Assembly (NCBI RefSeq): GCF_036365525.1
Contig: NC_090399.1
Location: 66,520,862 to 66,584,861, forward strand
DNA from: Heterodontus francisci
Lineage: Eukaryota
Reading direction: 5' to 3'
Length of the DNA: 64,000 nucleotides
The notes under the pieces are model-generated. The model ran no database searches, was not told the origin of the DNA, and saw only the letters and a program-made list of their open reading frames with translations. The position numbers and the translations under genes were made by a program. Of the stretch, positions 1-63,266 are shown piece by piece; the first letter of the stretch is position 1; the number at the start of each line of letters is the position of its first letter.

Positions 1-3000
1 GTTCATGCCCAGATGTCTCTCTCTCTCTGGGGTTGGTGTTTTGGGGTTCATGCCCTGATGTCTCTCTCTCTGGGGTTGATGTTTTGGGGTTCATGCCCTG
101 ATGTCTCCCTCTTTGGGGTTGATGTTTTGGGGTTCATGCCCTGATGTCTCTCTTTCATTGGGGTTGATGTTTTGGGGTTCATGCCGATGTCTCTCTCTTT
201 GGGGTTGATGTTTTGGGGTTCATGCCCTGATGTCTCTCTCTCATTGGGGTTGATGTTTTGGGGTTCATGCCGATGTCTCTCTCTTTGGGGTTGATGTTTT
301 GGGGTTCATGCACTGATGTCTCTCTCTCTCTGGGGTTGATGTTTTGGGGTTCATGCCCTGATGTCTCTCTCTCTCTGGGGTTAATGTTTTGGGGTTCATG
401 TCCTGATGTCTCTCTCTCTCTGTGGGGTTGATGTTTTGGGGTTCATGCCCTGATGTCTCTCTCTCTCTCTGGGGTTGATGTTTTGGGGTTCATGCCCTGA
501 TGTCTCTCTCTCACTCTGGGGTTGATGTTTTGGGGTTCATGCCCTGATGTCTCTCGCTGTCTGTGGGGTTGATGTTTTGGGATTCATGCCCTGATGTCTC
601 TCTCTCTCTCTGGGGTTGATGTTTTGGGGTTCATGCCCTGATGTCTCTCTCTCTCTCTGTGGGGTTGATGTTTTGGGGTTCATGCCCTGATGTCTCTCTC
701 TCTGTGGCGTTGATGTTTTGGGGTTCATGCCCTGATGTCTCTGTCTCTGGGGTTGGTGTTTTGGGTTTCATGCCCTGCTGTCTCTCTCTCTGTGGGGTTG
801 ATGTTTTGGGGTTCATGCCCTGATGTCCATCTCTCTCTGCGGTTGGTGTTTTGGGGTTCATGCCCTGATGTCTCTCTCTCTGTGGGGTTGATGTTTTGGG
901 GTTCATGCCCTGATGTCCATCTCTCTCTCTCTGGGGTTCATGTTTTGGGGTTCATGCCCTGATGTCTCTCTCTCTCTGGGGTTGGTGTTTTGGGGTTCAT
1001 GCCCTGATGTCTCTCTCTCTGGGGTTGATGTTTTGGGGTTCATGCCCTGATGTCTCTCTCTTTCTCTTGGGTTGATGTTTTGGGGTTCATGCCCTGATGT
1101 CTCTCTCTCTCTGTGGGGTTGATGTTTTGGGGTTCATGCCCTGATGTCTTTTTCTCTGTGGGGTTGATGTTTTGGGGTTCATGCCCTCATGTCCATCTCG
1201 CTCTCTCTGGGGTTGATGTTTTGGGGTTCATGCCCTGATGTCTCTCTTTGGGGATGATATTTTGGGGTTCATGCCCTGATGTCTCTCTCTCTGTGGGGTT
1301 GATGTTTTGGGGTTCATGCCCTGATGTCTCTCTCTGGGGTTGATGTTTTGGGGTTCATGCCCTGATGTCTCTCTTCGGGGATGATATTTTGGGGTTCATG
1401 CCCTGATGTCTCTGTCTCTGTGGGGTTGATGTTTTGGGGTTCATGCCCTGATGTCCATGTCTCTCTCTCTGGGGTTGATGTTTTGGGGTTCATGCCCTGA
1501 TGTCTCTCTGTCTGGGGTTGATGTTTTGGGGTTCATGCCCTGATGTCTCTCTCTTTGGGGTTGATGTTTTGGGGTTCATGCCCTGATGTCTCTCTCTCTT
1601 TGGGGTTGATGTTTTGGGGTTCATGCCCTGATGTCTTTCTCTGGGGTTGATGTTTTGGGGTTCATGCCCTGATGTCTGTCTTTGGGGATGATATTTTGGG
1701 GTTCATGCCCTGATGTCTCTCTCTCTCTGGGGTTGATGTTTTGGGGTTCATGCCCTGATGTCCATCTCTCTCTCTCTGGGGTTGATGTTTTGGGGTTCAT
1801 GCCCTGATGTCTCTCTCTCTCTGTGGGGTTGATGTTTTGGGGTTCATGCCCTGATGTCCATCTCTCTCTCTCTGGGGTTGATGTTTTGGGGTTCATGCCC
1901 TGATGTCTCTCTCTCATTGGGGTTGATGTTTTGGGGTTCATGCCGATGTCTCTCTCTTTGGGGTTGATGTTTTGGGGTTCATGCACTGATGTCTCTCTCT
2001 CTCTGGGGTTGATGTTTTGGGGTTCATGCCCTGATGTCTCTCTCTCTCTGGGGTTAATGTTTTGGGGTTCATGTCCTGATGTCTCTCTCTCTCTGTGGGG
2101 TTGATGTTTTGGGGTTCATGCCCTGATGTCTCTCTCTCTCTCTGGGGTTGATGTTTTGGGGTTCATGCCCTGATGTCTCTCTCTCACTCTGGGGTTGATG
2201 TTTTGGGGTTCATGCCCTGATGTCTCTCGCTGTCTGTGGGGTTGATGTTTTGGGATTCATGCACTGATGTCTCTCTCTCTCTCTGGGGTTGATGTTTTGG
2301 GGTTCATGCCCTGATGTCTCTCTCTCTCTCTGTGGGGTTGATGTTTTGGGGTTCATGCCCTGATGTCTCTCTCTCTGTGGCGTTGATGTTTTGGGGTTCA
2401 TGCCCTGATGTCTCTGTCTCTGGGGTTGGTGTTTTGGGTTTCATGCCCTGCTGTCTCTCTCTCTGTGGGGTTGATGTTTTGGGGTTCATGCCCTGATGTC
2501 CATCTCTCTCTGCGGTTGGTGTTTTGGGGTTCATGCCCTGATGTCTTTCTCTCTGTGGGGTTGATGTTTTGGGGTTCATGCCCTGATGTCCATCTCTCTC
2601 TCTCTGGGGTTCATGTTTTGGGGTTCATGCCCTGATGTCTCTCTCTCTCTGGGGTTGGTGTTTTGGGGTTCATGCCCTGATGTCTCTCTCTCTGGGGTTG
2701 ATGTTTTGGGGTTCATGCCCTGATGTCTCTCTCTTTCTCTTGGGTTGATGTTTTGGGGTTCATGCCCTGATGTCTCTCTCTCTCTGTGGGGTTGATGTTT
2801 TGGGGTTCATGCCCTGATGTCTTTCTCTCTGTGGGGTTGATGTTTTGGGGTTCATGCCCTCATGTCCATCTCGCTCTCTCTGGGGTTGATGTTTTGGGGT
2901 TCATGCCCTGATGTCTCTCTTTGGGGATGATATTTTGGGGTTCATGCCCTGATGTCTCTCTCTCTCTGGGGTTGATGTTTTGGGGTTCATGCCCTGATGT

Positions 3001-6000
3001 CTCTCTCTGGGGTTGATGTTTTGGGGTTCATGCCCTGATGTCTCTCTTCGGGGATGATATTTTGGGGTTCATGCCCTGATGTCTCTGTCTCTGTGGGGTT
3101 GATGTTTTGGGGTTCATGCCCTGATGTCCATCTCTCTCTCTCTGGGGTTGATGTTTTGGGGTTCATGCCCTGATGTCTCTCTGTCTGGGGTTGATGTTTT
3201 GGGGTTCATGCCCTGATGTCTCTCTCTTTGGGGTTGATGTTTTGGGGTTCATGCCCTGATGTCTCTCTCTCTTTGGGGTTGATGTTTTGGGGTTCATGCC
3301 CTGATGTCTTTCTCTGGGGTTGATGTTTTGGGGTTCATGCCCTGATGTCTCTCTTTGGGGATGATATTTTGGGGTTCATGCCCTGATGTCTCTCTCTCTC
3401 TGGGGTTGATGTTTTGGGGTTCATGCCCTGATGTCCATCTCTCTCTCTCTGGGGTTGATGTTTTGGGGTTCATGCCCTGATGTCTGTCTCTCTCTGTGGG
3501 GTTGATGTTTTGGGGTTCATGCCCTGATGTCCATCTCTCTCTCTCTGGGGTTGATGTTTTGGGGTTCATGCCCTGATGTCTCTCTCTCTCTGTGGGGTTG
3601 ATGTTTTGGGGTTCATGCCCTGATGTCTCTCTCTCTCTCTGGGGTTGATGTTTTGGGGTTCATGCCCTGATGTCTCTCTCTCTGTGGGGTTGATGTTTTG
3701 GGGTTCATGCCCTGATGTCTCTCTCTCTCTCTGGGGTTGATGTTTTGGGGTTCATGCCCTGATGTCTCTCTCTCTCTCTGGGGTTGATGTTTTGGGGTTC
3801 ATGCCCTGATGTCTCTCTCTCTCTGTGGCGTTGATGTTTTGGGGTTCATGCCCTGATGTCTCTGTCTCTGGGGTTGGTGTTTTGGGTTTCATGCCCTGCT
3901 GTCTCTCTCTCTGTGGGGTTGATGTTTTGGGGTTCATGCCCTGATGTCCATCTCTCTCTCTCTGGGGTTCATGTTTTGGGGTTCATGCCCTGATGTCTCT
4001 CTCTCTCTGGGGTTGGTGTTTTGGGGTTCATGCCCTGATGTCTCTCTCTCTGGGGTTGATGTTTTGGGGTTCATGCCCTGATGTCTCTCTCTTTCTGTTG
4101 GGTTGATGTTTTGGGGTTCATGCCCTGATGTCTCTGTCTCTGTGGGGTTGATGTTTTGGGGTTCATGCCCTGATGTCCATCTCTCTCTCTCTGGGGTTGG
4201 TGTTTTGGGGTTCATGCCCTGATGTCTCTCTCTCTGGGGTTGATGTTTTGGGGTTCATGCCCTGATGTCTCTCTCTTTCTCTTGGGTTGATGTTTTGGGG
4301 TTCATGCCCTGATGTCTCTCTCTCTCTGGGGTTGATGTTTTGGGGTTCATGCCCTGATGTCTCTCTCTCTCTGGGGTTGGGGTTTTGGGGTTCATGCCCT
4401 GATGTCTCTCTCTCTCTGGGGTTGATGTTTTGGGGTTCATGCCCTGATGTCTCTCTCTCTCTGCGATTGATGTTTTGCGTTCATGCCCTGATGTCTCTCT
4501 CTCTGGGGTTGATGTTTTGGGGTTCATGCCCTGATGTCTCTCTCTCATTGGGGTTGATGTTTTGGGGTTCATGCCGATGTCTCTCTCTTTGGGGTTGATG
4601 TTTTGGGGTTCATGCACTGATGTCTCTCTCTCTCTGGGGTTGATGTTTTGGGGTTAATGCCCTGATGTCTCTCTCTTTGGGGTTGATGTTTTGGGGTTCA
4701 TGCCCTGATGTCTCTCTCTCTTTGGGGCTGATGTTTTGGGGTTCATGCCCTGATGTCTCTCTCTTTGGTGTTGATGTTTTGGGGTTCGTGCCCTGATGTC
4801 TCTCTCTCTCTGGGGTTGATGTTTTGGGGTTCCTGCCCTGATGTCTCTCTCTCTCTGTGGTTGATATTTTGGGGTTTTTGCCCTGATGTCTCTCTCTCTG
4901 GGGTTGATGTTTTGGGGTTCATGCCCTGATGTCTCTCTCTTTGGGGTTCATGCCCTGATGTCTCTCTCTCTTTGGGGTTGACGTTTTGGGGTTCATGCCC
5001 TGATGTCTCTCTCTCTCTGGGGTTGATGTTTTGGGGTTCATGCCCTGATGTCTCTCTCTTTGGGGTTGATGTTTTGGGGTTCTTGCCCTGATGTCTCTCT
5101 CTCTTTGGGGTTGATGTTTTGGGGTTCATGCCCTGATGTCTCTCTCTTTGGGGTTGATGTTTTGGGGTTCATGCCCTGATGTCTCTCTCTGGGGTTGATG
5201 TTTTGGGGTTCTTGCCCTGATGTCTCTCTCTCTCTCTGGGGTTGATGTTTTGGGGTTCATGCCCTGATGTCCATCTCTCTCTCTCTGGGGTTGATGTTTT
5301 GGGGTTCATGCCCTGATGTCTCTCTCTCTCTCTGGGGTTGATGTTTTGGGGTTCATGCCCTGATGTCTCTCTCTCTGGGGTTGATGTTTTGGGGTTCATG
5401 CCCTGATGTCTCTCTCTCTGTGGGATTGGTGTTTTGGGTTCATGCGCTGATGTCTCTCTCTTTCTCTGGGGTTGATGTTTTGGGGTTCATGCCCTGATGT
5501 CTCTCTCTCTGTGGTGTTGATGTTTTGGGGTTCATGCCCTGATGTCTCTCTCTCTGTGGTGTTGATGTTTTGGGGTTCATGCCCTGATGTCTCTCTCTTT
5601 GGGGTTGATGTTTTGGGGTTCATGCCCTGATGTCTCTCTCTGGGGTTGATGTTTTGGGGTTCTTGCCCTGATGTCTCTCTCTCTCTCTGGGGTTGATGTT
5701 TTGGGGTTCATGCCCTGATGTCCATCTCTCTCTCTCTGGGGTTGATGTTTTGGGGTTTATGCCCTGATGTCTCTCTCTCTCTGTGGGGTTGATGTTTTGG
5801 GGTTCATGCCCTGATGTCCATCTCTCTCTCTCTGGGGTTGATGTTTTGGGGTTCATGCCCTGATGTCTCTCTCTCTCTCTGGGGTTGATGTTTTGGGGTT
5901 CATGCCCTGATGTCTCTCTCTCTGGGGTTGATGTTTTGGGGTTCATGCCCTGATGTCTCTCTCTCTCTGGGATTGGTGTTTTGGGTTCATGCGCTGATGT

Positions 6001-7270
6001 CTCTCTCTTTCTCTGGGGTTGATGTTTTGGGGTTCATGCCCTGATGTCTCTGTCTCTGGGTTTGATGTTTTGGGGTTCATGCCCTGATGTCTCTCTCTCT
6101 GTGGTGTTGATGTTTTGGGGTTCATGCCCTGATGTCTCTCTCTCTGTGGTGTTGATGTTTTGGAGTTCATGCCCTGATGTCTCTCTCTCTGGGGTTGATG
6201 ATTTGGGGTTCATGCCCTGATGTCTCTCTCTCTCTCTGGGGTTGATGTTTTGGGGTTTTTGCCCTGATGTATCTCTCTCTGTGGGGTTGATGTTTTGGGG
6301 TGTTTGCCCTGATGTCTCTCTCTGTGGGGTTGATGTTTTGGGGTTCATGCCCTGAAGTTTCTCTCTGGGGTTGATGTTTTGGGGTTCATGCCCTGATGTC
6401 TCTCTCTATCTCTGGGGTTGATTTTTTCTGGTTCATGCCCTGATGTCTCTCTCTCTCTGGGGTTGATGTTTTGGGGTTCATGCCCTGATGTCTCTCTCTC
6501 TCTGGGGTTGATGTTTTGGGGTTCATGCCCTGAGGTCTCTCTCTGGGGTTGATGTTTTGGGGTTCATGCCCTGATGTCTCTCTCTCTGTGGGGTTGATGT
6601 TTTGGGGTTCATGCCCTGATGTCTCTCTCTCTCTGTGGGGTTGATATTTTGGGGTTCATGCCCTGATGTCTCTCTCTCTCTGGGGTTGATGTTTTGGGGT
6701 TCATGCCCTGATGTCTCTCTCTCTCTGGGGTTGATGTTTTGGGGTTCATGCCCTGAGGTCTCTCTCTGGGGTTGATGTTTTGGGGTTCATGCCCTGATGT
6801 CTCTCTCTCTGTGGGGTTGATGTTTTGGGGTTCATGCCCTGATGTCTCTCTCTCTCTGTTGGGTTGATATTTTGGGGTTCATGCCCTGATGTCTCTCTCT
6901 CTCTGGGGTTGATGTATTGGGGTTCATGCCCTGATGTCTCTCTCTCTCTGTGGGGTTGATATTTTGGGGTTCATGCCCTGATGTCTCTCTCTCTGTGGGG
7001 TTGATGTTTTGGGGTTCATGCCCTGATGTCTCTCTCTCTGTGGGGTTGATGTTTTGGGGTTCATGCCCTGATGTCTCTCTCTCTCTGTGGGGTTGATGTT
7101 TTGGGGTTCATGCCCTGATGCCTCTCTCTCTTTGGGGTTGATGTTTTGAGGTTCATCTCCTGATGTCTCTCTCTGGGGTTGATGTTTTGGGGTTCATGCC
7201 CTGATGTCTCTCTCTCTTTGGGATTGATGTTTTGGGGTTCATGCCCTGATGTCTCTCTCTCTCTCTCTGC
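1..7270. repeat. Intron-1 minisatellite, ~45-bp unit GGGGTTGATGTTTTGGGGTTCATGCCCTGATGT(CT)n, roughly 160 copies, open at the window start
   Basis: Directly visible tandem unit with a variable CT tract. ORF-track pairs 537/2210, 631/2304, 735/2408 and 1621/3294 show a 1673-bp higher-order duplication. Confidence 0.98.
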
Positions 7271-7277
7271 GTTTCAG

Positions 7278-7538
7278 GCTCTCATTCGCTCCGGTTTTTC
7301 TTTACCTCAATGACCCCGATTCCCGGTCTCCCAGATTTTTTTTCTGTCGGTTATGTGGATGAGGCTCAGATCGATTACTACGATAGCAACCTTCAGAAGG
7401 CGACCTTTCGGCAGCGGTGGATGTCGGAGAGTCCGGGTCCTGATTTCTGGCAGGAACAGACACAGAGGCTGCGGATTTGGGAGCAGACTGCAAAGGCCCA
7501 GATTCAGACCCTCATGAAACGGAACAACCAGTCGGCCG
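7278..7538 (+). CDS. MHC class I alpha1 exon: (G)SHSLRFFFTSMTPIPGLPDFFSVGYVDEAQIDYYDSNLQKATFRQRWMSESPGPDFWQEQTQRLRIWEQTAKAQIQTLMKRNNQSA(G)
   Basis: Acceptor (ct)n-gcgtttcag at 7277 and donor GTGAGT at 7539. Contains the GSHSLR start, VGYVD, conserved Trp residues, R84 and the N86-Q-S glycosylation sequon. Confidence 0.96.
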
Positions 7539-9279: not shown

Positions 9280-9552
9280 GGATTCACATACTCCAGACAG
9301 TGTACGGCTGTGAGCTGCGGGAAGATGGGAGCACCTGGGGGTTTTATCAAGATGGCTGGGACGGGAAGGATGCCATCGTGTTAGACAAAGAGAACATGAT
9401 GTGGGTCGCAGTGACACCATTCATGGTGCTGACCAAACAGGAGTGGGACAGAGACACTGCCAGGAACCAGCGGTGGAAGGATTACCTGGAGCAGGAGTGC
9501 ATCGCCTGGCTGAATGAATTCCTGAAACTTGGAGAGAACGAACTGAGACCGG
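9280..9552 (+). CDS. MHC class I alpha2 exon: (G)IHILQTVYGCELREDGSTWGFYQDGWDGKDAIVLDKENMMWVAVTPFMVLTKQEWDRDTARNQRWKDYLEQECIAWLNEFLKLGENELRP
   Basis: Acceptor CAG at 9277-9279 and donor GTGAGT at 9553. Contains H93, Q96, YGC101, DGKD, T143, W147, Y159, C164 and W167. Confidence 0.97.
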
Positions 9553-10082: not shown

Positions 10083-13000
10083 ACAGAGGTCTGATCCCCA
10101 GTTTAAAGAGGTATGTAAAATTCCCCGGGGTCAGGAGTCTGATCCCCAGTTTAAAGAGATATGTACCATTCCCTGGGGTCTGGGGTCTATTCCCCAGTTT
10201 AAAGGGATATGTACCATTGTCTGGGGTAAGGGGTCTAATCCTCAGTTTGAAGGGATATGTACCATTCCCTGGGGTCAGGGGTCTATTCCCCAGTTTAAAG
10301 GGATATGTACCATTCCCTGGGGTAAGGGGTCTAATCCCCAGTTTAAAGGGATATGTACCATTCCCTGGGGTAAGGGGTCTAATCCCCAGTTTAAAGGGAT
10401 ATGTACCATTTCCCGAGGTCAGGGATCTAATCCCCAGTTTAAAGGGGTATGTACCGTTTCTTGGGGTCAGGGGACTGATCCCCAGTTTAAAAGGATATGT
10501 ACCGTTCCTTGGGGTCAGGGGACTGATCCCCAGTTTAAAGGGATATATACCGTTCCGTGGGGTCAGGGGTCTGATCCCAAGTTTAAAGGGGTATGTACCA
10601 TTCCTGCGGTCAGGGCTCTGATCCCCAGTTTAAAGGGGTATGTACCATTCCTGGGGTCAGGGGTCTAATCCCCAGTTTAAAGGGATATGTACCGTTCCTT
10701 GGGGTCACGGGACTGATTCCCAGTTTTAAGGGATATGTACCATTCCTTGGGGTCAGGGGTCTGATCCCCAGTTTAAAGGGGTATGTACCATTCCTGAGGT
10801 CAGGGGTCTGATCCCCAGTTCAAGGAGTATGTACCGTTCCTTGGGGTCAGGGGACTGATCCCTGGTTTAAAGGGATATGTACCGTACATTGGGGACAGGG
10901 GACTCATCCCCAGTTTAAAGGGATATGTACCGTTCCTTGGGGTCAGGGGTCTGATCCCAAGTTTAAAGGGGTATATACCGTTCCTGGGGTCAGGGCTCTG
11001 ATCTCCAGTTTAAAGGGGTATGTACCATTCCTGGGGTCAGGGGTCTGATCCCCAATTTAAAGGGATATGTACCATTCCTTGGTGACAGGGGTCCAATCCC
11101 CAGTTTAAAGGGGTATGTACCATTTCCCGAGGTCAGGGGTCTAATCCTCAGTTTAAAGGGATATGTACCATTCCCTGGGGTCAGGGGTCTGATCCCCAGT
11201 TTAAAGGGGTATGTACCATTCCTGGGGTCAGGGGTCTGATCCCCAGTTTAAAGGGGTATGGACCATTCCTGAGGTCAGGGGTCTGATCCCCAGTTTAAAG
11301 GGATATGTACCGATCCTTGGGGTCAGAGGTCGAATCCCCAGTTTAAAGGGATATGTACCATTTCCTGAGGTCAGGGGTCTAATCCGCAGTTTAAAGGGGT
11401 ATGTACCATTCCTGGGGTCAGGTGTCTGATCCCAAATTTAAAGGGGTATGTAACATAGCTGGGGTCAGGGCTCTGATCCCCAGTTTAAAGGGGTATGTAC
11501 CATTCCTGGGGTCAGGGGTCTAATCCCCAGTTTAAAGGGGTATGTACCATTCTTGGGGTCAGGTGTCTGATCCCCAGTTTAAAGGGATATGTAACGGTCC
11601 TCGGGGTCAGGGGACTGATCCCCAGTTTAAAGGGATATGTAACGGTCCTCGGGGTCAGGGGTCTGATCCCCAGTTTAAAGGGGTATGTACCATTCCTGAG
11701 GTCAGGGTAAAGATCCCCAGTTTAAAGGGATATGCACCGTTCCTTGGGGTCAGGGGACGGATCCCCAGTTTAAACGGATATGTACCGTTCCTTGGGGTCA
11801 GGGGTCTTATCCCAAATTTAAAGGGGTATGTACCATTTCTGGGGTCAGGGGTCTGATCCCCAGTTTAAAGGGGTATGTACCATTCCTGGGGTCAGGTCTA
11901 ATCCGCAGTTTAAAGGGGTATGTACCATTCCTGGGGTCAGGGGTCTGATCCCCAGTTTAAAGGGCTATGTACCATTCCTGCGGTCAGGTCTAATCCGCAG
12001 TTTAAAGGGGTCTGTACCATTCTAGAGGTCAGGGGTCTGATCCCCAGTAAAAGGGGTATGTACCATTCCTGGGGTCAGGGGTCTGATCCCCAGTTTAAAG
12101 GGTTATGTACCGTTCCTTGGGGTCAGGGGACTGATTGCCAGTTTAATGGGATCTGTACTGCTCCCGGGGTCAGGGGTCTGATCCCCAGTTTAAAGGGTAT
12201 GTTCCGTTCTTTGGGGTCTGGGTCCGATCGCCAGTTTAAAGGGATATGTACCATTCCCTGGGGTCCGGGGTCTAATCCCTCATTTAAAGGGGTATGTACC
12301 ATTTCCTGGGGTCAGGAATCTAATCCGCAGTTGAAAGGGATATGTACCATTCCCTGGGGTCAGGTGTCTAACCCCAGTTTAAAGGGATATGTACCATTCC
12401 CTGGGGTCAGGGCTCTGATCTCCAGTTTAAAGGGGTATGTGCCATTCCCTGGGGTCAGGGGTCTGATCCCCAGTTTAAAGGGTATGTACCATTCCTGGGG
12501 TCAGGGGTCCGATCTCCAATTTAAAGGGATATGTACCATTCCCTGGGGTCAGGGGTCGAATCCCCAGTTTAAAGGGAAATGTACCGTTCCTTGGGGTCAG
12601 GGGACTGATCCCCAGTTTAAAGGGATATGTACCATTCCCTGGGGTCAGGGGTCGAATCCCCAGTTTAAAGGGATATAGACCGTTCCTTGGGGTCAGGGGT
12701 CTGATCCCCAGTTTAAAGGGGTATGTACCATTCCTGCGGTCAGGGCTCTGATCCCCAGTTTAAAGGGATATGTACCATTCCTTGGGGTCAGGGGACCGAT
12801 CCCCAGTTCAAAGGGATATGTACCGTTCCTTGGGGTCAGGGGACCGATCCCCAGTTCAAAGGGATATGTACCGTTCCTTGGGGGCAGGGGACTGATCCCC
12901 AGTTTAAAAGGATATGTACCGTTCCTTGGGGTCAGGGGTCTGATCCCAAGTTTAAAGGGGTGTGTACTATTCCTGCGGTCAGGGCTCTGAACCCCAGTTT

Positions 13001-16000
13001 AAAGGGGTATGTACCATTCCTGGGGTCAGGGGTCTAATCCTCAGTTTAAAGGGGTATGTACCATTCCTTGGGGTCAGGGGACCGATCCCCAGTTCAAAGG
13101 GATATGTACCGTTCCTTGGGGTCAGGGGACTGATCCCCAGTTTAAAGGGATATGTACCATTCCTGGGGTCAGGGGGCTGATCCCCAGTTTAAAGGGGTAT
13201 GTACCATTCCTGAGGTCAGGGGTCTGATCCCCAGTTTAAAGGAGTATGTACCGTTCCTGGGGTCAGGGGTCTGATCCCCAATTTAAAGGGGTATGTACCA
13301 TTCCTGAGGTCAGGGGAAAGATCCCCAGTTTAAAGGGATATGCACCGTTCCTTGGGGTCAGGGGTCTTATCCCAAATTTAAATGGGGATGTACCATTTCT
13401 GGGGTCAGGGGTCTGATCCCCAGTTTAAAGGGGTATGTACCATTCCTGGGGTCAGGTCTAATCCGCAGTTTAAAGGGGTATGTACCATTCCTGGGGTCAG
13501 GGGTCTGATCCCCAGTTTAAAGGGGTATGTACCATTCCTGCGGTCAGGTCTAATCCGCAGTTTAAAGGGGTCTGTACCATTCTAGAGGTCAGGGGTCTGA
13601 TCCCCAGTTTAAAGGGGTACGTACCATTCCTGGGGTCAGGGGTCTGATCCCCAGTTTAAAGGGTTATGTACCGTTCCTTGGGGTCAGGGGACTGATCCCC
13701 AGTTTAATGGGATCTGTACTTCTCCCGGGGTCAGGGGTCTGATCCCCAGTTTAAAGGGTATGGTCCGTTCTTTGGGGTCTGGGTCCGATCGCCAGTTTAA
13801 AGGGATATGTACCATTCCCTGGGGTCAGGGGTCTAATCCCTCATTTAAAGGGGTATGTACCATTTCCTGGGGTCAGGAATCTAATCCGCAGTTGAAAGGG
13901 ATATGTACCATTCCCTGGGGTCAGGTGTCTAACCCCAGTTTAAAGGGATATGTACCATTCCCCGGGGTCAGGGCTCTGATCTCCAGTTTAAAGGGGTATG
14001 TACCATTCCCTGGGGTCAGGGGTCTGATCCCCAGTTTAAAGGGTATGTACCATTCCTGGGGTCAGGGGTCTGATCTCCAATTTAAAGGGATATGTACCAT
14101 TCCCTGGGGTCAGGGGTCGAATCCCCAGTTTAAAGGGATATGTACCGTTCCTTGGGGTCAGGGGACTGATCCCCAGTTTAAAGGGATATGTACCATTCCC
14201 TGGGGTCAGAGGTCGAATCCCCAGTTTAAAGGGATATAGACCGTTCCTTGGGGTCAGGGGTCTGATCCCCAGTTTAAAGGGGTATGTACCATTCCTGCGG
14301 TCAGGGCTCTGATCCCCAGTTTAAAGGGGTATGTACCATTCCTGGGGTCAGTGGTCTAATCCTCAGTTTAAAGGGGTATGTACCATTCCTTGGGGTCAGG
14401 GGACCGATCCCCAGTTCAAAGCGATATGTACCGTTCCTTGGGGTCAGGGGACTGATCCCCAGTTTAAAGGGATATGTACCATTCCTGGGGTCAGGGGTCT
14501 GATCCCCAGTTTAAAGGGGTATGTACCATTCCTAAGGTCAGGGATCTGATCCCCAGTTTAAAGGAGTATGTACCGTTCCTTGGGGTCAGGGGACTCATCC
14601 CCAGTTTAAAGGGATATGTACCGTTCCTTGGGGTCAGGGGTCTGATCCCAAGTTTAAAGGGTATGTACCATTCCTGGGGTCAGGGGTCTGATCCCCAGTT
14701 TAAAGGGTATGTACCATTCCTGGGGTCAGGGGTCTGATCCCCAATTTAAAGGGATATGTACCGTTCCTGGGGTAAGGGGTCTAATCCCCAGTTTAAAGGG
14801 ATATGTACCATTTCCCGAGGTCAGGGGTCTAATCCTCAGTTTAAAGGGATATGTACCATTCCTGGGGTCAGGGGTCTGATCCCCAGTTTAAAGGGGTATG
14901 TACCATTCCCTGGGGTCAGGGGTCTGATCCCCAGTTTAAAGGGATATGTACCGATCCTTGGGGTCAGGGGTCTAATCCCCAGTTTAAAGGGATATGTACC
15001 ATTTCCTGAGGTCAGAGGTCTAATCCCAAGTTTAAAGGGATATGTACCATTTCCCGAGGTCAGGGGTCTAATCCGCAGTTTAAAGGGGTATGTACCATTC
15101 CTGGGGTCAGTTGTCTGATCCCAAATTTAAAGGAGTATGTACCATTCCTGTGGTCAGGGGTCTAATCCCCAGTTTAAAGGGGTATGTACCATTCTTGGGG
15201 TCAGGGGTCTGATCCCCAGTTTAAAGGGGTATGTACCATTCCTGAGGTCAGGTGTCTGATCCCCAGTTTAAAGGGATATGTAACGTTCCTTGGGGTCAGG
15301 GGACTGATCCCCAGTTTAAAGGGATATGTACCGTTCCTTGGAGTCAGGGGTCTTATCCCAAATTTAAAGGGGTATGTACCATTCCTGGTGTCAGATGTCT
15401 GATCCCCAGTTTAAAGGGATATGTAACGTTCCTTGGGGTCAGGGGACTGATCCCCAGTTTAAAGGGATATGTACCGTTCCTTGGAGTCAGGGGTCTTATC
15501 CCAAATTTAAAGGGGTATGTACCATTTCTGGGGTCAGGGGTCTGATCCCCAGTTTAAAGGGGTATGTACCATTCCTGGGGTCAGGTCTAATCCGCAGTTT
15601 AAAGGGGTATGTACCATTCCTGCGGTCAGGTCTAATCCGCAGTTTAAAGGGATATGTACCATTCCAGACGTCAGGGCTCTGATCCCCAGTTTAAAGGGGT
15701 ATGTTCCATTCCTGGGGTCAGGGGTCTAATCCACAGTTTAAAGGGATATATACCGTTCCTTGGGGTCAGGGGTCTGATCCCAAGTTTAAAGGGTATGTAC
15801 CATTCCTGGGGTCAGGGGTCTGATCCCCAGTTTAAAGGGTATGTACCATTCCTGGGGTCAGGGGTCTGATCCCCAATTTAAAGGGGTATGTACCATTCCT
15901 GAGGTCAGGGGAAAGATCCCCAGTTTAAAGGGATATGCACCGTTCCTTGGGGTCAGGGGACGGATCCCCAGTTTAAAGGGATATGTACCGTTCCTTGGGG

Positions 16001-19000
16001 TCAGGGGTCTTATCCCAAATTTCAAGGGGTATGTACCATTCCTGGGGTCAGGGGTCTGATCCCCAGTTTAAAGGGGTATGTACCATTCCTGGGGTCAGGT
16101 CTAATCCGCAGTTTAAAGGGGTATGTACCATTCCTGGGGTCAGGGGTCTGATCCCCAGTTTAAAGGGGTATGTACCATTCCTGCGGTCAGGTCTAATCCG
16201 CAGTTTAAAGGGGTCTGTACCATTCTAGAGGTCAGGGGTCTGATCCCCAGTTTAAAGGGGTATGTACCATTCCTGGGGTCAGGGGTCTGATCCCCAGTTT
16301 AAAGGGTTATGTACCGTTCCTTGGGGTCAGGGGACTGATCCCCAGTTTAATGGGATCTGTACTGCTCCCGGGGTCAGGGGTCTGATCCCCAGTTTAAAGG
16401 GTATGTTCCGTTCTTTGGGGTCTGGGTCCGATCGCCAGTTTAAAGGGATATGTACCATTCCCTGGGGTCAGGGGTCTAATCCCTCATTTAAAGGGGTATG
16501 TACCATTTCCTGGGTCAGGAATCTAATCCGCAGTTGAAAGGGATATGTACCATTCCCTGGGGTCAGGTGTCTAACCCCAGTTTAAAGGGATATGTACCAT
16601 TCCCTGGGGTCAGGGCTCTGATCTCCAGTTTAAAGGGTTATGTACCATTCCCTGGGGTCAGGGGTCTGATCCCCAGTTTAAAGGGTATGTACCATTCCTG
16701 GGGTCAGGGGTCTGATCTCCAATTTAAAGGGATATGTACCATTCCCTGGGGTCAGGGGTCGAATCCCCAGTTTAAAGGGATATGTACCGTTCCTTGGGGT
16801 CAGGGGACTGATCCCCAGTTTAAAGGGATATGTACCATTCCCTGGGGTCAGGGGTCGAATCCCCAGTTTAAAGGGATATAGACCGTTCCTTGGGGTCAGG
16901 GGTCTGATCCCCAGTTTAAAGGGGTATGTACCATTCCTGCGGTCAGGGCTCTGATCCCCAGTTTAAGGGGTATGTACCATTCCTGGGGTCAGGGGTCTAA
17001 TCCTCAGTTTAAAGGGGTATGTACCATTCCTTGGGGTCAGGGGACCGATCCCCAATTTAAAGGGATATGTACCATTCCTGGTGTAAGGGGTCTAATCCCC
17101 AGTTTAAAGGGATATGTACCATTTCCCGAGGTCAGGGGTCTAATCCTCAGTTTAAAGGGATATGTACCATTCCTGGGGTCAGGGCTCTGATCCCCAGTTT
17201 AAAGGGGTATGTACCATTCCTTGGGGTCAGGGGACCGATCCCCAGTTCAAAGGGATATGTACCGTTCCTTGGGGTCAGGGGACCGATCCCCAGTTCAAAG
17301 GGATATGTACCGTTCCTTGGGGTCAGGGGACTGATCCCCAGTTTAAAGGGATATGTACCATTCCTTGGGGTCAGGGGTCTGATCCCAAGTTTAAAGGGGT
17401 GTGTACTATTCCTGCGGTCAGGGCTCTGATCCCCAGTTTAAAGGGGTATGTACCATTCCTGGGGTCAGGGGTCTAATCCTCAGTTTAAAGGGATATGTAC
17501 CGTTCCTTGGGGTCAGGGGACTGATCCCCAGTTTAAAGGGATATGTACCATTCCTGGGGTCAGGGGGCTGATCCCCAGTTTAAAGGGGTATGTACCATTC
17601 CTGAGGTCAGGGGTCTGATCCCCAGTTTAAAGGAGTCTGTTCCGTTCCTGGGGTCAGGGGTCTGATCCCCAATTTAAAGGGGTATGTACCATTCCTGAGG
17701 TCAGGGGAAAGATCCCCAGTTTAAAGGGATATGCACCGTTCCTTGGGGTCAGGGGTCTTATCCCAAATTTAAATGGGGATGTACCATTTCTGGGGTCAGG
17801 GGTCTGATCCCCAGTTTAAAGGGGTATGTACCATTCCTGGGGTCAGGTCTAATCCGCAGTTTAAAGGGGTATGTACCATTCCTGGGGTCAGGGGTCTGAT
17901 CCCCAGTTTAAAGGGGTATGTACCATTCCTGCGGTCAGGTCTAATCCGCAGTTTAAAGGGGTCTGTACCATTCTAGAGGTCAGGGGTCTGATCCCCAGTT
18001 TAAAGGGGTATGTACCATTCCTGGGGTCAGGGGTCTGATCCCCAGTTTAAAGGGTTATGTACCGTTCCTTGGGGTCAGGGGACTGATCCCCAGTTTAATG
18101 GGATCTGTACTGCTCCCGGGGTCAGGGGTCTGATCCCAGTTTAAAGGGTATGGTCCGTTCTTTGGGGTCTGGGTCCGATCGCCAGTTTAAAGGGATATGT
18201 ACCATTCCCTGGGGTCAGGGGTCTAATCCCTCATTTAAAGGGGTATGTACCATTTCCTGGGGTCAGGAATCTAATCCGCAGTTGAAAGGGATATGTACCA
18301 TTCCCTGGGGTCAGGTGTCTAACCCCAGTTTAAAGGGATATGTACCATTCCCCGGGGTCAGGGCTCTGATCTCCAGTTTAAAGGGGTATGTACCATTCCC
18401 TGGGGTCAGGGGTCTGATCCCCAGTTTAAAGGGTATGTACCATTCCTGGGGTCAGGGGTCTGATCTCCAATTTAAAGGGATATGTACCATTCCCTGGGGT
18501 CAGGGGTCGAATCCCCAGTTTAAAGGGATATGTACCGTTCCTTGGGGTCAGGGGACTGATCCCCAGTTTAAAGGGATATGTACCATTCCCTGGGGTCAGG
18601 GGTCGAATCCCCAGTTTAAAGGGATATAGACCGTTCCTTGGGGTCAGGGGTCTGATCCCCAGTTTAAAGGGGTATGTACCATTCCTGCGGTCAGGGCTCT
18701 GATCCCCAGTTTAAAGGGGTATGTACCATTCCTGGGGTCAGGGGTCGAATCCCCAGTTTAAAGGGATATAGACCGTTCCTTGGGGTCAGGGGACTGATCC
18801 CCAGTTTAAAGGGATATGTACCATTCCTGGGGTCAGGGGTCTGATCCCCAGTTGAAAGGGGTATGTACCATTCCTAAGGTCAGGGGTCTGATCCCCAGTT
18901 TAAAGGAGGATGTACCGTTCCTTGGGGTCAGGGGACTCATCCCCAGTTTAAAGGGATATGTACCGTTCCTTGGGGTCAGGGGTCTGATCCCAAGTTTAAA

Positions 19001-22000
19001 GGGTATGTACCATTCCTGGGGTCAGGGGTCTGATCCCCAGTTTAAAGGGTATGTACCATTCCTGGGGTCAGGGGTCTGATCCCCAATTTAAAGGGATATG
19101 TACCATTCCTGGGGTAAGGGGTCTAATCCCCAGTTTAAAGGGATATGTACCATTTCCCGAGGTCAGGGGTCTAATCCTCAGTTTAAAGGGATATGTACCA
19201 TTCCTGGGGTCAGGGGTCTGATCCCCAGTTTAAAGGGGTATGTACCATTCCCTGGGGTCAGGGGTCTGATCCCCAGTTTAAAGGGATATGTACCGATCCT
19301 TGGGGTCAGGGGTCTAATCCCCAGTTTAAAGGGATATGTACCATTTCCTGAGGTCAGAGGTCTAATCCCCAGTTTAAAGGGATATGTACCATTTCCCGAG
19401 GTCAGGGGTCTAATCCGCAGTTTAAAGGGGTATGTACCATTCCTGGCGTCAGTTGTCTGATCCCAAATTTAAAGGAGTATGTACCATTCCTGTGGTCAGG
19501 GGTCTAATCCCCAGTTTAAAGGGGTATGTACCATTCTTGGGGTCAGGGGTCTGATCCCCAGTTTAAAGGGGTATGTACCATTCCTGAGGTCAGGTGTCTG
19601 ATCCCCAGTTTAAAGGGATATGTAACGTTCCTTGGGGTCAGGGGACTGATCCCCAGTTTAAAGGGATATGTACCGTTCCTTGGAGTCAGGGGTCTTATCC
19701 CAAATTTAAAGGGGTATGTACCATTTCTGGGGTCAGGGGTCTGAACCCCAGTTTAAAGGGGTATGTACCATTCCTGGGGTCAGGTCTAATCCGCAGTTTA
19801 AAGGGGTATGTACCATTCCTGGGGTCAGGGGTCTGATCCCCAGTTTAAAGGGGTATGTCCCATTCCTGCGGTCAGGTCTAATCCGCAGTTTAAAGGGATA
19901 TGTACCATTCCAGACGTCAGGGCTCTGATCCCCAGTTTAAAGGGGTATGTTCCATTCCTGGGGTCAGGGGTCTAATCCACAGTTTAAAGGGATACATACC
20001 GTTCCTTGGGGTCTGGGGTCTGATCCCAAGTTTAAAGGGTATGTACCATTCCTGGGGTCAGGGGTCTGATCCCCAGTTTAAAGGGTATGTACCATTCCTG
20101 GGGTCAGGGGTCTGATCCCCAATTTAAAGGGGTATGTACCATTCCTGAGGTCAGGGGAAAGATCCCCAGTTTAAAGGGATATGCACCGTTCCTTGGGGTC
20201 AGGGGACGGATCCCCAGTTTAAAGGGATATGTACCGTTCCTTGGGGTCAGGGGTCTTATCCCAAATTTCAAGTGGTATGTACCATTCCTAGGGTCAGGGG
20301 TCTGATCCCCAGTTTAAAGGTGTATGTACCATTCCTGGGGTCAGGTCTAATCCGCAGTTTAAAGGGGTATGTACCATTCCTGGGGTCAGGGGTCTGATCC
20401 CCAGTTTAAAGGGGTATGTACCATTCCTGCGGTCAGGTCTAATCCGCAGTTTAAAGGGGTCTGTACCATTCTAGAGGTCAGGGGTCTGATCCCCAGTTTA
20501 AAGGGGTATGTACCATTCCTGGGGTCAGGGGTCTGATCCCCAGTTTAAAGGGTTATGTACCGTTCCTTGGGGTCAGGGGACTGATCCCCAGTTTAATGGG
20601 ATCTGTACTGCTCCCGGGGTCAGGGGTCTGATCCCCAGTTTAAAGGGTATGTTTCGTTCTTTGGGGTCTGGGTCCGATCGCCAGTTTAAAGGGATATGTA
20701 CCATTCCCTGGGGTCAGGGGTCTAATCCCTCATTTAAAGGGGTATGTACCATTCCTGGGGTCAGGGGTCTGATCTCCAATTTAAAGGGATATGTACCGTT
20801 CCCTGGGTTCAGGGGTCGAATCCCCAGTTTAAAGGGATATGTACCGTTCCTTGGGGTCAGGGGACTGATCCCCAGTTTAAAGGGATATGTACCATTCCCT
20901 GGGGTCAGGGGTCGAATCCCCAGTTTAAAGGGATATAGACCGTTCCTTGGGGTCAGGGGTCTGATCCCCAGTTTAAAGGGGTATGTACCATTCCTGCGGT
21001 CAGGGCTCTGATCCCCAGTTTAAAGGGGTATGTACCATTCCTGGGGTCAGGGGTCTAATCCTCAGTTTAAAGGGGTATGTACCATTCCTTGGGGTCAGGG
21101 GACCGATCCCCAATTTAAAGGGATATGTACCATTCCTGGGGTAAGGGGTCTAATCCCCAGTTTAAAGGGATATGTACCATTTCCCGAGGTCAGGGGTCTA
21201 ATCCTCAGTTTAAAGGGATATGTACCATTCCTGGGGTCAGGGGTCTGATCCCCAGTTTAAAGGGGTATGTACCATTCCCTGGGGTCAGGGGTCTGATCCC
21301 CAGTTTAAAGGGATATGTACCGATCCTTGGGGTCAGGGGTCTAATCCCCAGTTTAAAGGGATGTGTACCATTTCCTGAGGTCAGGGGTCTAATCCCCAGT
21401 TTAAAGGGATATGTACCATTTCCTGAGGTCAGGAGTCTGATCCCCAGTTTAAAGGGGTATGTACCTTTCCTGAGGTCAGGTGTCTGATCCCCAGTTTAAA
21501 GGGATATGTAACGTTCCTTGGGGTCAGGGGACTGATCCCCAGTTTAAAGGGATATGTACCGTTCCTTGGGGTCAGGGGTCTTATCCCAAATTTAAAGGGG
21601 TATGTACCATTTCTGGGGTCAGGGGTCTGATCCCCAGTTTAAAGTGGTACGTACCATTCCTGGGGTCAGGTCTACTCCGCAGTTTAAAGGGGTATGTACC
21701 ATTCCTGGGGTCAGGGGTCTGATCCCCAGTTTAAAGTGGTATGTTACATTCCTGCGGTCAGGACTAATCCGCAGTTTAAAGGGATATGTACCATTCCAGA
21801 GGTCAGGGGTCTAATCCCCAGTTTAAAGGGGTATGTACCATTCTTGGGGTCAGGGGTCTGATCCCCAGTTTAAAGGGGTATGTACCATTCCTGAGGTCAG
21901 GTGTCTGATCCCCAGTTTAAAGGGATATGTAACGTTCCTTGGGGTCAGGGGACTGATCCCCAGTTTAAAGGGATATGTACCGTTACTTGGGGTCAGGGGT

Positions 22001-25000
22001 CTTATCCCAAATTTAAAGGGGTATGTATCATTTCTGGGGTCAGGGGTCTGATCCCCAGTTTAAAGGGGTATGTACCATTCCTGGGGTCAGGTCTAATCCG
22101 CAGTTTAAAGGGGTATGTACCATTCCTGGGGTCAGGGGTCTGATCCCCAGTTTAAAGGGGTATGTACCATTTCTGCGGTCAGGTCTAATCCGCAGTTTAA
22201 AGGGATATGTACCATTCCAGAGGTCAGGGGTCTGATCCCCAGTTTCAAGGGTATGTTCCTTTCTTTGGGGTCAGGATCCGATCGCCAGTTTAAAGGGATA
22301 GGTACCATTCCCTGGGGTCAGGGGTCTAATCCCCAGTTGAAAGGGATATGTACCATTCCCTGGGGTCAGGTGTCCAACCCCAGTTTAAAGGGATAGGTAC
22401 CATTCCCTGGGGTCGGGGGTCTGATCCCCAGTTTAAAGGGGTATGTACCATTCCTGGTGTCAGGGGTCTGATCCCCAGTTTAAAGGGATATGTACCGATC
22501 CTTGGGGTCAGGGGTCTAATCCCCAGTTTAAAGGGATATGTACCATTTCCTGAGGTCAGGGGTCTAATCCCCAGTTTAAAGGGATATGTACCATTTCCCG
22601 AGGTCAGGGGTCTGATCCCCAGTTTAAAGGGGTATGTACCATTCCTGAGGTCAGGTGTCTGATCCCCAGTTTAAAGGGATATGTAACGTTCCTTGGGGTC
22701 AGGGGACTGATCCCCAGTTTAAAGGGATATGTACCGTTCCTTGGGGTCAGGGGTCTTATCCCAAATTTAAAGGGGTATGTACCATTTCTGGGGTCAGGGG
22801 TCTGATCCCCAGTTTAAAGTGGTACGTACCATTCCTGGGGTCAGGTCTAATCCGCAGTTTAAAGGGGTATGTACCATTCCTGGGGTCAGGGGTCTGATCC
22901 CCAGTTTAAAGTGGTATGTACCATTCCTGCGGTCAGGTCTAATCCGCAGTTTAAAGGGATATGTACCATTCCAGAGGTCAGGGGTCTGATCCCCAGTTTA
23001 AAGGGGTATGTACCATTCCTGGGGTCAGGGGACTGATCCCAGTTTAACGGGATCTGTACTGCTCCCGGGGTCAGTGGTCTGATCCCCAGTTTAAAGGGAT
23101 ATGTACCATTCCCTGGGGTCAGGGGTCGAATCCCCAGTTTAAAGGGATATAGACCGTTCCTTGGGGTCAGGGGTCTGATCCCCAGTTTAAAGGGGTATGT
23201 ACCATTCCTGCGGTCAGGGCTCTGATCCCCAGTTTAAAGGGGTATGTACCATTCCTGGGGTCAGGGGTCTAATCCTCAGTTTAAAGGGGTATGTACCATT
23301 CCTTGGGGTCAGGGGACCGATCCCCAATTTAAAGGGATATGTACCATTCCTGGGGTAAGGGGTCTAATCCCCAGTTTAAAGGGATATGTACCATTTCCCG
23401 AGGTCAGGGGTCTAATCCTCAGTTTAAAGGGATATGTACCATTCCTGGGGTCAGGGGTCTGATCCCCAGTTTAAAGGGGTATGTACCATTCCCTGGGGTC
23501 AGGGGTCTGATCCCCAGTTTAAAGGGATATGTACCGATCCTTGGGGTCAGGGGTCTAATCCCCAGTTTAAAGGGATGTGTACCATTTCCTGAGGTCAGGG
23601 GTCTAATCCCCAGTTTAAAGGGATATGTACCATTTCCTGAGGTCAGGAGTCTGATCCCCAGTTTAAAGGGGTATGTACCTTTCCTGAGGTCAGGTGTCTG
23701 ATCCCCAGTTTAAAGGGATATGTAACGTTCCTTGGGGTCAGGGGACTGATCCCCAGTTTAAAGGGATATGTACCGTTCCTTGGGGTCAGGGGTCTTATCC
23801 CAAATTTAAAGGGGTATGTACCATTTCTGGGGTCAGTGGTCTGATCCCCAGTTTAAAGTGGTACGTACCATTCCTGGGGTCAGGTCTAATCCGCAGTTTA
23901 AAGGGGTATGTACCATTCCTGGGGTCAGGGGTCTGATCCCCAGTTTAAAGGGGTATGTACCATTCCTGAGGTCAGGTGTCTGATCCCCAGTTTAAAGGGA
24001 TATGTAACGTTCCTTGGGGTCAGGGGACTGATCCCCAGTTTAAAGGGATATGTACCGTTACTTGGGGTCAGGGGTCTTATCCCAAATTTAAAGGGGTATG
24101 TATCATTTCTGGGGTCAGGGGTCTGATCCCCAGTTTAAAGGGGTATGTACCATTCCTGGGGTCAGGTCTAATCCGCAGTTTAAAGGGGTATGTACCATTC
24201 CTGGGGTCAGGGGTCTGATCCCCAGTTTAAAGGGGTATGTACCATTTCTGCGGTCAGGTCTAATCCGCAGTTTAAAGGGATATGTACCATTCCAGAGGTC
24301 AGGGGTCTGATCCCCAGTTTCAAGGGTATGTTCCTTTCTTTGGGGTCAGGATCCGATCGCCAGCTTAAAGGGATATGTACCATTCCCTGGGGTCAGGGGT
24401 CTAATCCCCAGTTGAAAGGGATATGTACCATTCCCTGGGGTCAGGTGTCCAACCCCAGTTTAAAGGGATAGGTACCATTCCCTGGGGTCAGGGGTCTAAT
24501 CCCTCATTTAAAGGGGTATGTACCATTCCCTGGGGTCAGGTGTCTAATCCCCAGTTTAAAGGGATAGGTACCATTCCCTGGGGTCAGGTGTCCAACCCCA
24601 GTTTAAAGGGATAGGTACCATTCCCTGGGGTCAGGGGTCTAATCCCTCATTTAAAGGGGTATGTACCATTCCCTGGGGTCAGGGGTCTAATCCCCAGTTA
24701 AAAGGGATATGTACCATTCCCTGGGGTCAGGTGTCTAACCCCAGTTTAAAGGGATATGTACCATTTCCCGAGGTCAGGGGTCTAATCCGCAGTTTAAAGG
24801 GGTATGTACCATTCCTGGGGTCAGGTGTCTGATCCCAAATTTAAAGGGGTATGTACCATTTCTGGGGTCGGGGGTCTGATCCCCAGTTTAAAGGGGTATG
24901 TACCATTCCTGGTGTCAGGGGTCTAATCCGCAGTTTAAAGGGGTATGTACCATTCCTGGGGTCAGGGATCTGATCCCCAGTTTAAAGGGGTATGGACCAT

Positions 25001-53821: not shown

Positions 53822-54097
53822 TTGCTCCTCATCTGTTTCCATCCGTGGACAAAGTGTCAGCCACTAAACCGACCCAGTTCTCCTGCCTGGTCACGGGCTT
53901 TTATCCTCGCGATATCGAAGTCACCCTCCTGAGAAATGGCAGATCAATGGCAGACACGGAATCCCATGACATCCTGCCCAACCACGATGGCACCTACCAG
54001 CTCCGGAAATGGGCTCAGATCGACCCTAATGATGGAGCCACCTATTCCTGTCAGTATGAGCAGAGTGGAAAAGAAGGAGTGAAGATCCGAGACTGGG
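53822..54097 (+). CDS. MHC class I alpha3 (Ig C1-set) exon: VAPHLFPSVDKVSATKPTQFSCLVTGFYPRDIEVTLLRNGRSMADTESHDILPNHDGTYQLRKWAQIDPNDGATYSCQYEQSGKEGVKIRDW
   Basis: CTGAC branch-like motif, pyrimidine tract and CAG ending at 53821; donor GTAAGA at 54098. Contains CLVTGFYP, LPNHDGTYQ and YSC motifs. Confidence 0.97.
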
Positions 54098-55308: not shown

Positions 55309-55329
55309 ACAGGACTGTCCTGGTAGACC

Positions 55330-63140: not shown

Positions 63141-63266
63141 ACGGGACATTCCGAGATACTCCAGGATCTCCAGAAGGGACAAATCTGGGTTTGATTGTTG
63201 GAATTGTTGTTGCTGCCGTCGCTGTGATTGCTCTTGTCATCGGTGCTGTTGTGTGGAAGAGGAGAG
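63141..63266 (+). CDS. MHC class I connecting peptide/transmembrane exon: DGTFRDTPGSPEGTNLGLIVGIVVAAVAVIALVIGAVVWKRR
   Basis: Strong acceptor cttcctcattccccccacag, phase 1 giving W-D-G after alpha3. A ~23-residue hydrophobic helix, basic WKRR stop-transfer, and donor GTAGGG at 63267. Too short for the ORF track. Confidence 0.93.

What the first reader, a model, noticed from the sequence alone, without database searches (positions are those of the whole stretch)
1..7277. >7-kb AG-exclusion zone made of ~160 repeated branch-point/polypyrimidine modules
Seen: each monomer has CCCTGAT (fits the yUnAy branch consensus) followed by GT(CT)n, and the last monomer runs directly into gcgtttcag, the real acceptor. 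The consensus has no AG on the sense strand. By eye I found only about six AGs (11, 6164, 6356, 6533, 6756, 7149), and only the first is a YAG. Established: the spliceosome normally uses the first AG after the branch point, and CU-rich tracts bind U2AF/PTBP1. Inference: the array could expand harmlessly because it lacks AG, and it may offer very distant branch points or act as a PTBP1/U2AF sink controlling alpha1 inclusion.
Basis: partly seen in the sequence, partly recalled or inferred. Interest (0 to 1): 0.72.

Follow-up and report, generated by a model that had tools for sequence, protein, structure and literature searches.

The report
Giant repeated splice-site tail, shark MHC
The last 45 letters of the first intron of a shark immune gene (MHC class I) are repeated about 1,200 times over 54 kb, yet the gene is still spliced at its normal site, so the repeat is likely a tolerated expansion that inherited its lack of AG rather than a splicing control device.

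Summary
The array is real but misdescribed. It is the 3' end of a 54-kb, ~1,170-1,220-unit minisatellite filling 92% of the 58.8-kb intron 1 of an expressed shark nonclassical MHC class I gene. The unit is the intron's own branch point and pyrimidine tract minus the final AG; 1-2 copies precede alpha1 in 7 of 31 paralogues and 14 to 1,308 in 13. The strict AG-free zone is 127 nt, not 7 kb; only YAG is absent for 7.3 kb. The whole array holds 44 AG, 15 of them after a pyrimidine tract. An RNA-like contig joins this gene's leader to the normal acceptor. Neighbouring class I genes carry acceptor-abutting arrays with AG in every unit, and the family's largest array (99 kb) lies before TAP2. Verdict: likely tolerated repeat expansion seeded on a splice site; weak selection against AG possible (~20%); distant branch points or a PTBP1 sink untested and unlikely. 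The scan earlier noted another satellite-filled class I intron in this genome.

The parts
1..7268 (+). 3' end of a 43-47-bp minisatellite (consensus GTTCATGCCCTGATGT(CT)nGGGGTTGATGTTTTGGG); about 162 units in the window, about 1,170-1,220 in all; the array begins near window coordinate -46,690
   Evidence: TRF; unit counts 1,166 and 1,211-1,220
11..12 (+). Nearest YAG upstream of the acceptor (CCCAG variant, 6 copies in the whole array)
7149..7150 (+). Nearest AG upstream of the acceptor (GAG); bounds the true 127-nt AG-exclusion zone
7244..7250 (+). Terminal CCCTGAT, predicted branch site, A at 7249 (-29)
   Evidence: position kept in paralogues; use inferred, not mapped
7251..7277 (+). Pyrimidine tract and acceptor, GT(CT)n GCGTTTCAG; end of the 58,843-nt intron 1
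   Evidence: sequence; leader-to-alpha1 join in run X3
7278..7538 (+). MHC class I alpha1 exon (261 nt, open)
   Evidence: contigs with 0 differences over 234 nt
9280..9552 (+). alpha2 exon (273 nt, open)
10084..53778 (+). Intron 2 array of a different 47-bp unit, 2,898 AG and 1,749 YAG, ending about 45 nt before the alpha3 acceptor; used as control
53822..54097 (+). alpha3 exon (Ig C1-set)
63141..63266 (+). Predicted transmembrane exon
   Evidence: read from the sequence; not searched against a family

Best explanation
The array is a 54-kb minisatellite whose unit is the last ~45 nt of intron 1 (predicted branch point plus pyrimidine tract, without the final AG), likely amplified by ordinary repeat turnover and likely tolerated because the spliceosome would use only the last unit. 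Steps: (1) shown: the unit occurs as 1-2 copies at the alpha1 acceptor of distant class I paralogues. (2) Inferred: a duplication that stopped short of GCGTTTCAG seeded the array, so it inherited the AG-free make-up of any normal 3' splice site. (3) Shown: growth went by block duplications up to 3.7 kb; the enzymology (unequal exchange, conversion, slippage) is inferred. (4) Shown at contig level: the leader joins the normal acceptor. (5) Inferred: inner units are ignored because they lack an AG or, where one arose, any donor site to define an exon.
For: 1-2 units at the acceptor in 7 of 31 paralogues, 14-1,308 in 13 of 31. Identical alpha1 proteins carry 187, 204 and 295 units; one clade (95/92 support) spans 1 to 1,308. 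66% of array positions start a 120-mer that occurs more than once; longest duplication 3,761 nt. AG 44 vs AA 46 in the whole array. 15 pyrimidine-tract+YAG decoys, 2.8 per 10 kb, against 2.4 and 2.1 in two same-family arrays; no GTRAG donor in 54 kb. The five AGs nearest the acceptor lie in the last 1.2 kb. 11 of 13 paralogue arrays have an AG within 180 nt of the acceptor, 5 of 13 a YAG within 66-84 nt. 4 of 31 paralogues have other arrays with 1-11 AG per unit against the acceptor; for one (L050), a contig joins a leader to its alpha1 start. X3 contig with 0 differences to this gene's unique leader continues into alpha1. Same-family arrays of 58 kb (L018) and 99 kb (before TAP2) gain AG at the neutral rate, ratios 0.9-1.5.
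Against: In this array AG-making substitutions are short: 12 events vs 42-48 expected, p 0.007-0.02; 18 vs 43, p 0.03, when clustered changes are kept; 8 vs 42, p 0.0015, on a shorter core; 0 vs 5.7 reached 0.8% of units, p 0.007; AG is the most depleted of 16 dinucleotides; 0.82 AG per kb against 1.7-21.6 in 12 of 13 paralogue arrays, 0 in one short one. RNA evidence is contigs of one sample, RNA status guessed; rare isoforms would be lost. Branch points were not mapped.
Confidence: 0.72

Rival explanations
1. Same origin, but weak purifying selection trims AG-bearing blocks from this expressed gene's array, because amplified AG units would draw some splicing to cryptic acceptors.
For: Shortage of amplified AG variants here but not in two context-matched arrays; own vs TAP2-side array Fisher p 0.0005 under loose event counting. 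YAG-making changes 3 vs 16 in the core.
Against: Presence of AG variants is normal (8 vs 9.6 sites, p 0.43); under stricter clustering p is 0.04 then 0.17 and the Fisher tests give 0.11-0.47; dropping four hot sites gives p 0.08-0.34. The core test misses the strongest decoys (TGCAG x9, TTAG x4, TCAG x1), which are as dense as in controls. The AG-rich intron 2 array shows a like ratio, 0.17-0.30, p 0.04-0.07; 3 of 15 unrelated strand tests fall at or below 0.30. AGs upstream of the used branch point are expected to be free of selection (PMC1431707, passages).
Confidence: 0.2
2. The array is a splicing regulator: distant branch points or massed PTBP1/U2AF binding delay or repress alpha1 inclusion, or it soaks up PTBP1 like PNCTR.
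For: 7,485 overlapping (1,676 non-overlapping) YUCUYY/YYUCUY motifs per transcript, against 2,178 (565) in PNCTR (PMC6224606, passages). Skipping alpha1 would keep the frame (phase 1-1, 261 nt). Distal branch points can delay splicing (PMC5378181, passages).
Against: A canonical branch site lies at -29; published distant branch points lie within some hundred nt (largest zone in the passages read: 590 nt). Unit number is not conserved even between identical paralogues. The biggest array precedes TAP2, not a class I alpha1 exon. No stable array RNA is shown.
Confidence: 0.06
3. The array's length is inflated or scrambled by assembly.
For: Near-exact block duplications up to 3.7 kb; no long reads were laid on the array.
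Against: No N in the stretch; variants change along the array and 34% of 120-mers are unique; arrays of like size stand at other loci.
Confidence: 0.04

Closest known systems
AG-exclusion-zone / distant-branch-point exons (PTBP1 exon 11, GABBR1 exon 23; PMC1431707)
   Same: AG-poor, pyrimidine-rich sequence before an acceptor with several yUnAy motifs.
   Different: There the zone is AG-free from a distant branch point to the acceptor and lacks a near candidate; here the strict zone is 127 nt, a canonical site lies at -29, and the AG-poor state comes from a repeat unit.
Splice-site-adjacent tandem repeats (human spl-TRs such as NARS2, PMC10078293; ABCA7 VNTR, seen only in its reference list)
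   Same: Tandem repeat at a splice site whose length varies.
   Different: The NARS2 repeat pushes the branch site away from the acceptor; here each unit carries its own branch motif, so the last spacing stays normal. Size is tens of kb. No splicing effect shown here.
Satellite-filled giant introns (Drosophila kl-3, kl-5; PMC6508621, search listing and abstract start only)
   Same: A working gene whose intron is mostly tandem repeat.
   Different: 59 kb rather than megabases; unit derived from the splice site; no special expression programme known.
PNCTR, PTBP1-sequestering repeat RNA (PMC6224606)
   Same: Thousands of CU motifs per molecule.
   Different: PNCTR is a stable Pol I transcript at ~36 copies per HeLa cell; this is an intron of a Pol II gene with no sign of stability.
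Elasmobranch nonclassical MHC class Ib genes (PMC10751288)
   Same: Host gene has class I alpha1-alpha3 exons in a class I cluster near TAP2.
   Different: Lineage (UBA, UDA, UEA or other) not assigned; the word 'intron' does not occur in that paper's main text.

Membership tests
AGEZ / distant-branch-point exon | Long stretch without any AG directly upstream of the acceptor (150 nt or more in the paper's main set) | tested here: not met
   127 nt; YAG-free for 7,265 nt
AGEZ / distant-branch-point exon | No good branch candidate near the acceptor | tested here: not met
   CCCTGAT with A at -29
AGEZ / distant-branch-point exon | Zone length conserved among homologues | tested here: not met
   66-910 nt in 13 paralogue arrays, 11 at or under 180 nt; orthologues not available
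AGEZ / distant-branch-point exon | Selection against AG in the zone | tested here: inconclusive
   nominal p 0.002-0.03, lost under strict counting
AGEZ / distant-branch-point exon | Lariat formed at a distant branch point | not testable with these tools
   only contigs available
Intronic minisatellite / VNTR | Head-to-tail units of 10-100 bp | tested here: met
   period 43-47, 85-88% matches
Intronic minisatellite / VNTR | Copy number labile | tested here: met
   between paralogues 1 to 1,308; between alleles not tested
Intronic minisatellite / VNTR | Lies in an intron that is spliced out | tested here: met
   leader-alpha1 join, one contig, RNA status guessed
Splicing-modulating repeat (spl-TR) | Length associated with splicing outcome | not testable with these tools
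   needs alleles or minigenes
PTBP1-sequestering repeat RNA (PNCTR type) | Dense YUCUYY/YYUCUY motifs | tested here: met
   7,485 / 1,676
PTBP1-sequestering repeat RNA (PNCTR type) | Stable, abundant nuclear RNA bound by PTBP1 | not testable with these tools
   no reads laid on the array, no binding data
MHC class I heavy chain (host gene) | Leader, alpha1, alpha2, alpha3, TM exons, open frames | tested here: met
   TM read by eye
Classical class Ia (host gene) | Conserved peptide-anchoring residues (Y7, Y59, Y171 and others; set recalled, not from a call) | tested here: not met
   F at the Y7, Y59 and Y171 positions read by eye; no formal alignment

The most novel reading that the evidence does not exclude
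Shark MHC genes turn their own splice-site flanks into giant minisatellites, and in an expressed gene selection edits the repeat's evolution over tens of kilobases by stopping AG-bearing blocks from spreading; the 1-to-1,300-unit series, with sister arrays of hundreds to thousands of decoy acceptors, would be a natural experiment in how a spliceosome finds one true acceptor, and array length might tune class I output.
Probability: 0.2. Interest if true: 0.65.

Novelty: new variant of a known kind. Interest (0 to 1): 0.36.

Why it matters
It shows that an intron can carry over a thousand copies of its own branch/pyrimidine signal, and neighbours thousands of AG-bearing units, and still be spliced at the right place. 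The paralogue series offers ready test material for exon definition against AG scanning. It also warns that very long 'AG-exclusion zones' can be by-products of repeat expansion, and explains why shark class I genes are hard to assemble and annotate.

Tried and rejected
7-kb strict AG-exclusion zone: rejected (127 nt). Base-composition test of AG rarity: rejected as uninformative, since all dinucleotides absent from the unit are rare. Sequence context (GG vs GT) as cause of the AG shortage: not supported, the same sites mutate freely in the TAP2-side array. Antisense control on this array: ratio 0.86, few sites. In one search, 19 strand tests had expectation 8 or more; 4 belonged to the same repeat family and were dropped, leaving 15. 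Variants above 10% of units were dropped (among them a TAG-making variant in 39 of 293 units of L012). Event counts come from flank clustering and over-split old variants; p values are nominal and the tests overlap. No run is on record as RNA. No loose end behind the leader matched array sequence or alpha2; contigs drop rare forms, so this says nothing on skipping. The TAP2 first exon had no PDB hit; identity rests on two later exons. One alignment row (L052) was cut at the wrong offset and ignored. Of 2,294 exact matches to a 30-nt unit pattern in the genome, at least 1,690 were placed in fetched loci; the rest were not placed. Literature: searches gave 0 papers; two searches gave nothing on this repeat by title and abstract start; these four searches of an open-access library do not prove it unpublished. 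No supplements were read.
Full report
Observation. The window opens inside a tandem array: period 45, 161.6 copies, 1-7264. The contrast with base composition (6 vs 152) means little, because AA, AC, TA and CG, also absent from the unit, are as rare. The AG nearest the acceptor is at 7149, so the AG-exclusion zone as defined in PMC1431707 (passages) is 127 nt; the YAG-free stretch is 7,265 nt, and a 10,205-nt YAG-free stretch lies mid-array.

Host gene. Exons at 7278-7538, 9280-9552 and 53822-54097 match Pfam MHC_I and C1-set; the best PDB hit is 6LUP (that it is a shark protein is recalled, and earlier scan notes call this genome a shark). Phe at three anchor-Tyr positions suggests a nonclassical gene (read by eye). 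The window is G000:C29:66520862-66584861. Upstream stretches show the array starting near window coordinate -46,690: 53,959 nt, 1,166 units by core matching and 1,211-1,220 by TRF. A leader exon ends at -51,566, so intron 1 is 58,843 nt and 92% array. That leader is unique in the genome: next hits are 87% or less.

Splicing. Three runs of one sample, guessed to be RNA, hold contigs with 0 differences over alpha1 (X1, X2: 234 nt) and alpha2 (X1, X2, X3: 215 nt) that leave the genome sequence at the exon ends. In X3 a 229-nt contig matches 138 nt of this leader with 0 differences and runs on; the two-contig loose-end consensus (agreement 0.95) is what this gene's alpha1 start plus a paralogue's would give (my reading of the tie letters). 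The normal acceptor is therefore used. Isoform shares cannot be read from contigs.

Origin. Of 34 other alpha1 hits, 31 were examined together, 2 later (80 and 58 units) and 1 not fetched. Among the 31: 13 have this array against the acceptor (14 to 1,308 units), 7 have 1-2 units, 1 has part of a unit, 4 have other arrays, 6 none. In the 21 that carry the module, the CTGAT/TTGAT adenine lies at -19 to -34 in 19 (one lacks it, one was not scored); here it is at -29. So the unit is the ordinary tail of intron 1, copied without its AG. In L019 and L020 a few more units lie about 4 kb upstream, so their single unit may be secondary; the direction of change is not fixed by the tree. Copy number is labile: identical alpha1 proteins carry 187, 204 and 295 units, and one clade spans 1 to 1,308. 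Growth went by blocks up to 3,761 nt; 66% of 120-mers recur.

Is AG-lessness needed? The full array has 44 AG and 23 YAG; 15 follow a pyrimidine tract, such as CCCTGATGTCTCTGTCTCTCTGCAG. It has no GTRAG donor. In 11 of 13 paralogue arrays an AG lies within 180 nt of the acceptor. The gene at L050 has an array with TTTATTTACAG in its unit that ends 23 nt before the acceptor and was found in all 13 stretches sampled over about 190 kb; an X1 contig joins a leader to exactly that alpha1 start. L015 and L016 repeat a whole acceptor plus a piece of alpha1, 136 and 14 times. Intron 2 of the window's gene holds 2,898 AG in an array ending about 45 nt before its acceptor. Expansion next to an acceptor thus does not depend on lacking AG.

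I counted isolated substitutions in the 35-nt constant core, merged copies with shared flanks, and compared AG-making with other sites of the same substitution class by permutation. Result: 12-13 events vs 35-48 expected, p 0.014-0.021; 12 vs 42, p 0.007, and 18 vs 43, p 0.03 with clustered changes; 8 vs 42, p 0.0015, and 17 vs 45, p 0.027 on a 32-nt core. AG is the most depleted of 16 dinucleotides. The same unit in a 58-kb paralogue array and in a 98.7-kb array elsewhere gives 0.9-1.5. Against it: AG variants arise at the normal share of sites (8 vs 9.6); only their amplification is short (0 vs 5.7, p 0.007); stricter merging gives p 0.04 and 0.17; four hot non-AG sites carry much of the effect; the core misses the strongest decoys, whose density equals the controls (2.8, 2.4, 2.1 per 10 kb); the AG-rich intron 2 array gives 0.30 and 0.17; 3 of 15 unrelated strand tests reach 0.30 or less, none p 0.02 or less. 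I leave this at about one in five for selection.

The largest array. A 2,180-unit, 98.7-kb array of the same unit (C29:65681504-65780186, minus strand) ends in CCCTGAT(CT)nTTTCAG about 107 nt before the start codon of a gene whose later exons match TAP2. A GC box and an ISRE-like motif (consensus recalled) follow, so this end may be a promoter or a 5'-UTR acceptor; I could not tell. Either way the repeat is not tied to class I alpha1.

Mechanism. Most likely the intron tail was duplicated and amplified by repeat turnover; splicing would define alpha1 by its own donor and the last unit; inner units lack AG or a partner donor. Published work places the AG constraint between branch point and acceptor (PMC1431707 passages; PMC9284458 abstract) and finds distal branch points of modest effect (PMC5378181 passages). 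A PTBP1 sink is possible by motif count (1,676 non-overlapping vs 565 in PNCTR, PMC6224606 passages) but needs a stable RNA, which is not shown.

Known context. Repeats that alter splicing near acceptors are known (PMC10078293 passages), as are satellite-filled giant introns (PMC6508621, listing only) and high tandem-repeat content on short shark chromosomes (PMC10620051 passages). PMC10751288 (passages and section 9) describes shark class Ib clusters without mention of introns. Four searches found no report of this repeat. An earlier scan note reports another satellite-filled class I intron in this genome (unchecked). Verdict: new variant of a known kind, interest 0.36.

Noticed in passing
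L036/L015 (C29:66.70-66.72 Mb, +) and L016 (C29:66.35 Mb, -): A 137-bp unit made of branch point (TTCTAAC), pyrimidine tract, acceptor TTTCAG and a shortened alpha1 piece (one frame reads DPEYWERQTQI) is repeated about 136 and 14 times directly before the true alpha1 exon: arrays of complete decoy acceptors. L016 keeps the anchor Tyr residues by eye and may be the classical gene; X2 contigs continue a leader with 9 letters matching its alpha1 start. Stranger than the finding itself.
   Followed up: partly
C29:66.846-67.034 Mb (L006, L039, L060-L069, L050): About 190 kb of a 26-32-bp unit containing TTTATTTACAG fills intron 1 of a class I gene and ends 23 nt before the acceptor; the leader-alpha1 join is seen in an X1 contig.
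   Followed up: partly
C29:65681504-65780186, minus strand (L089:2504 upward): 98.7-kb array of the same 43-45-bp unit ends at TTTCAG just before the first coding exon of TAP2; likely moved between loci; promoter or 5'-UTR intron unknown.
   Followed up: partly
L005/L007 (C29:66.833-66.837 Mb, -): 96% identical paralogue with a TGA in alpha2, no same-strand leader among the hits and only 14 units: likely a pseudogene cut by a rearrangement.
   Followed up: partly
window 9542-9999: Repeats after the alpha2 donor copy the exon-end and donor motif (ACTGAGAGTGG GTGAGTG): decoy donors, the mirror of the acceptor arrays.
   Followed up: no
window 10084-53778: 43.7-kb, ~930-copy array of a 47-bp AG-rich unit fills intron 2.
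   Followed up: partly
window 63422-64000 and L034/L035: 64-69-bp array after the TM exon, containing GTAAGT donor-like motifs, runs on for about 19 kb.
   Followed up: no
window about 55300-56850: Reverse-transcriptase-like retroelement remnant in intron 3 (judged by eye, no search).
   Followed up: no
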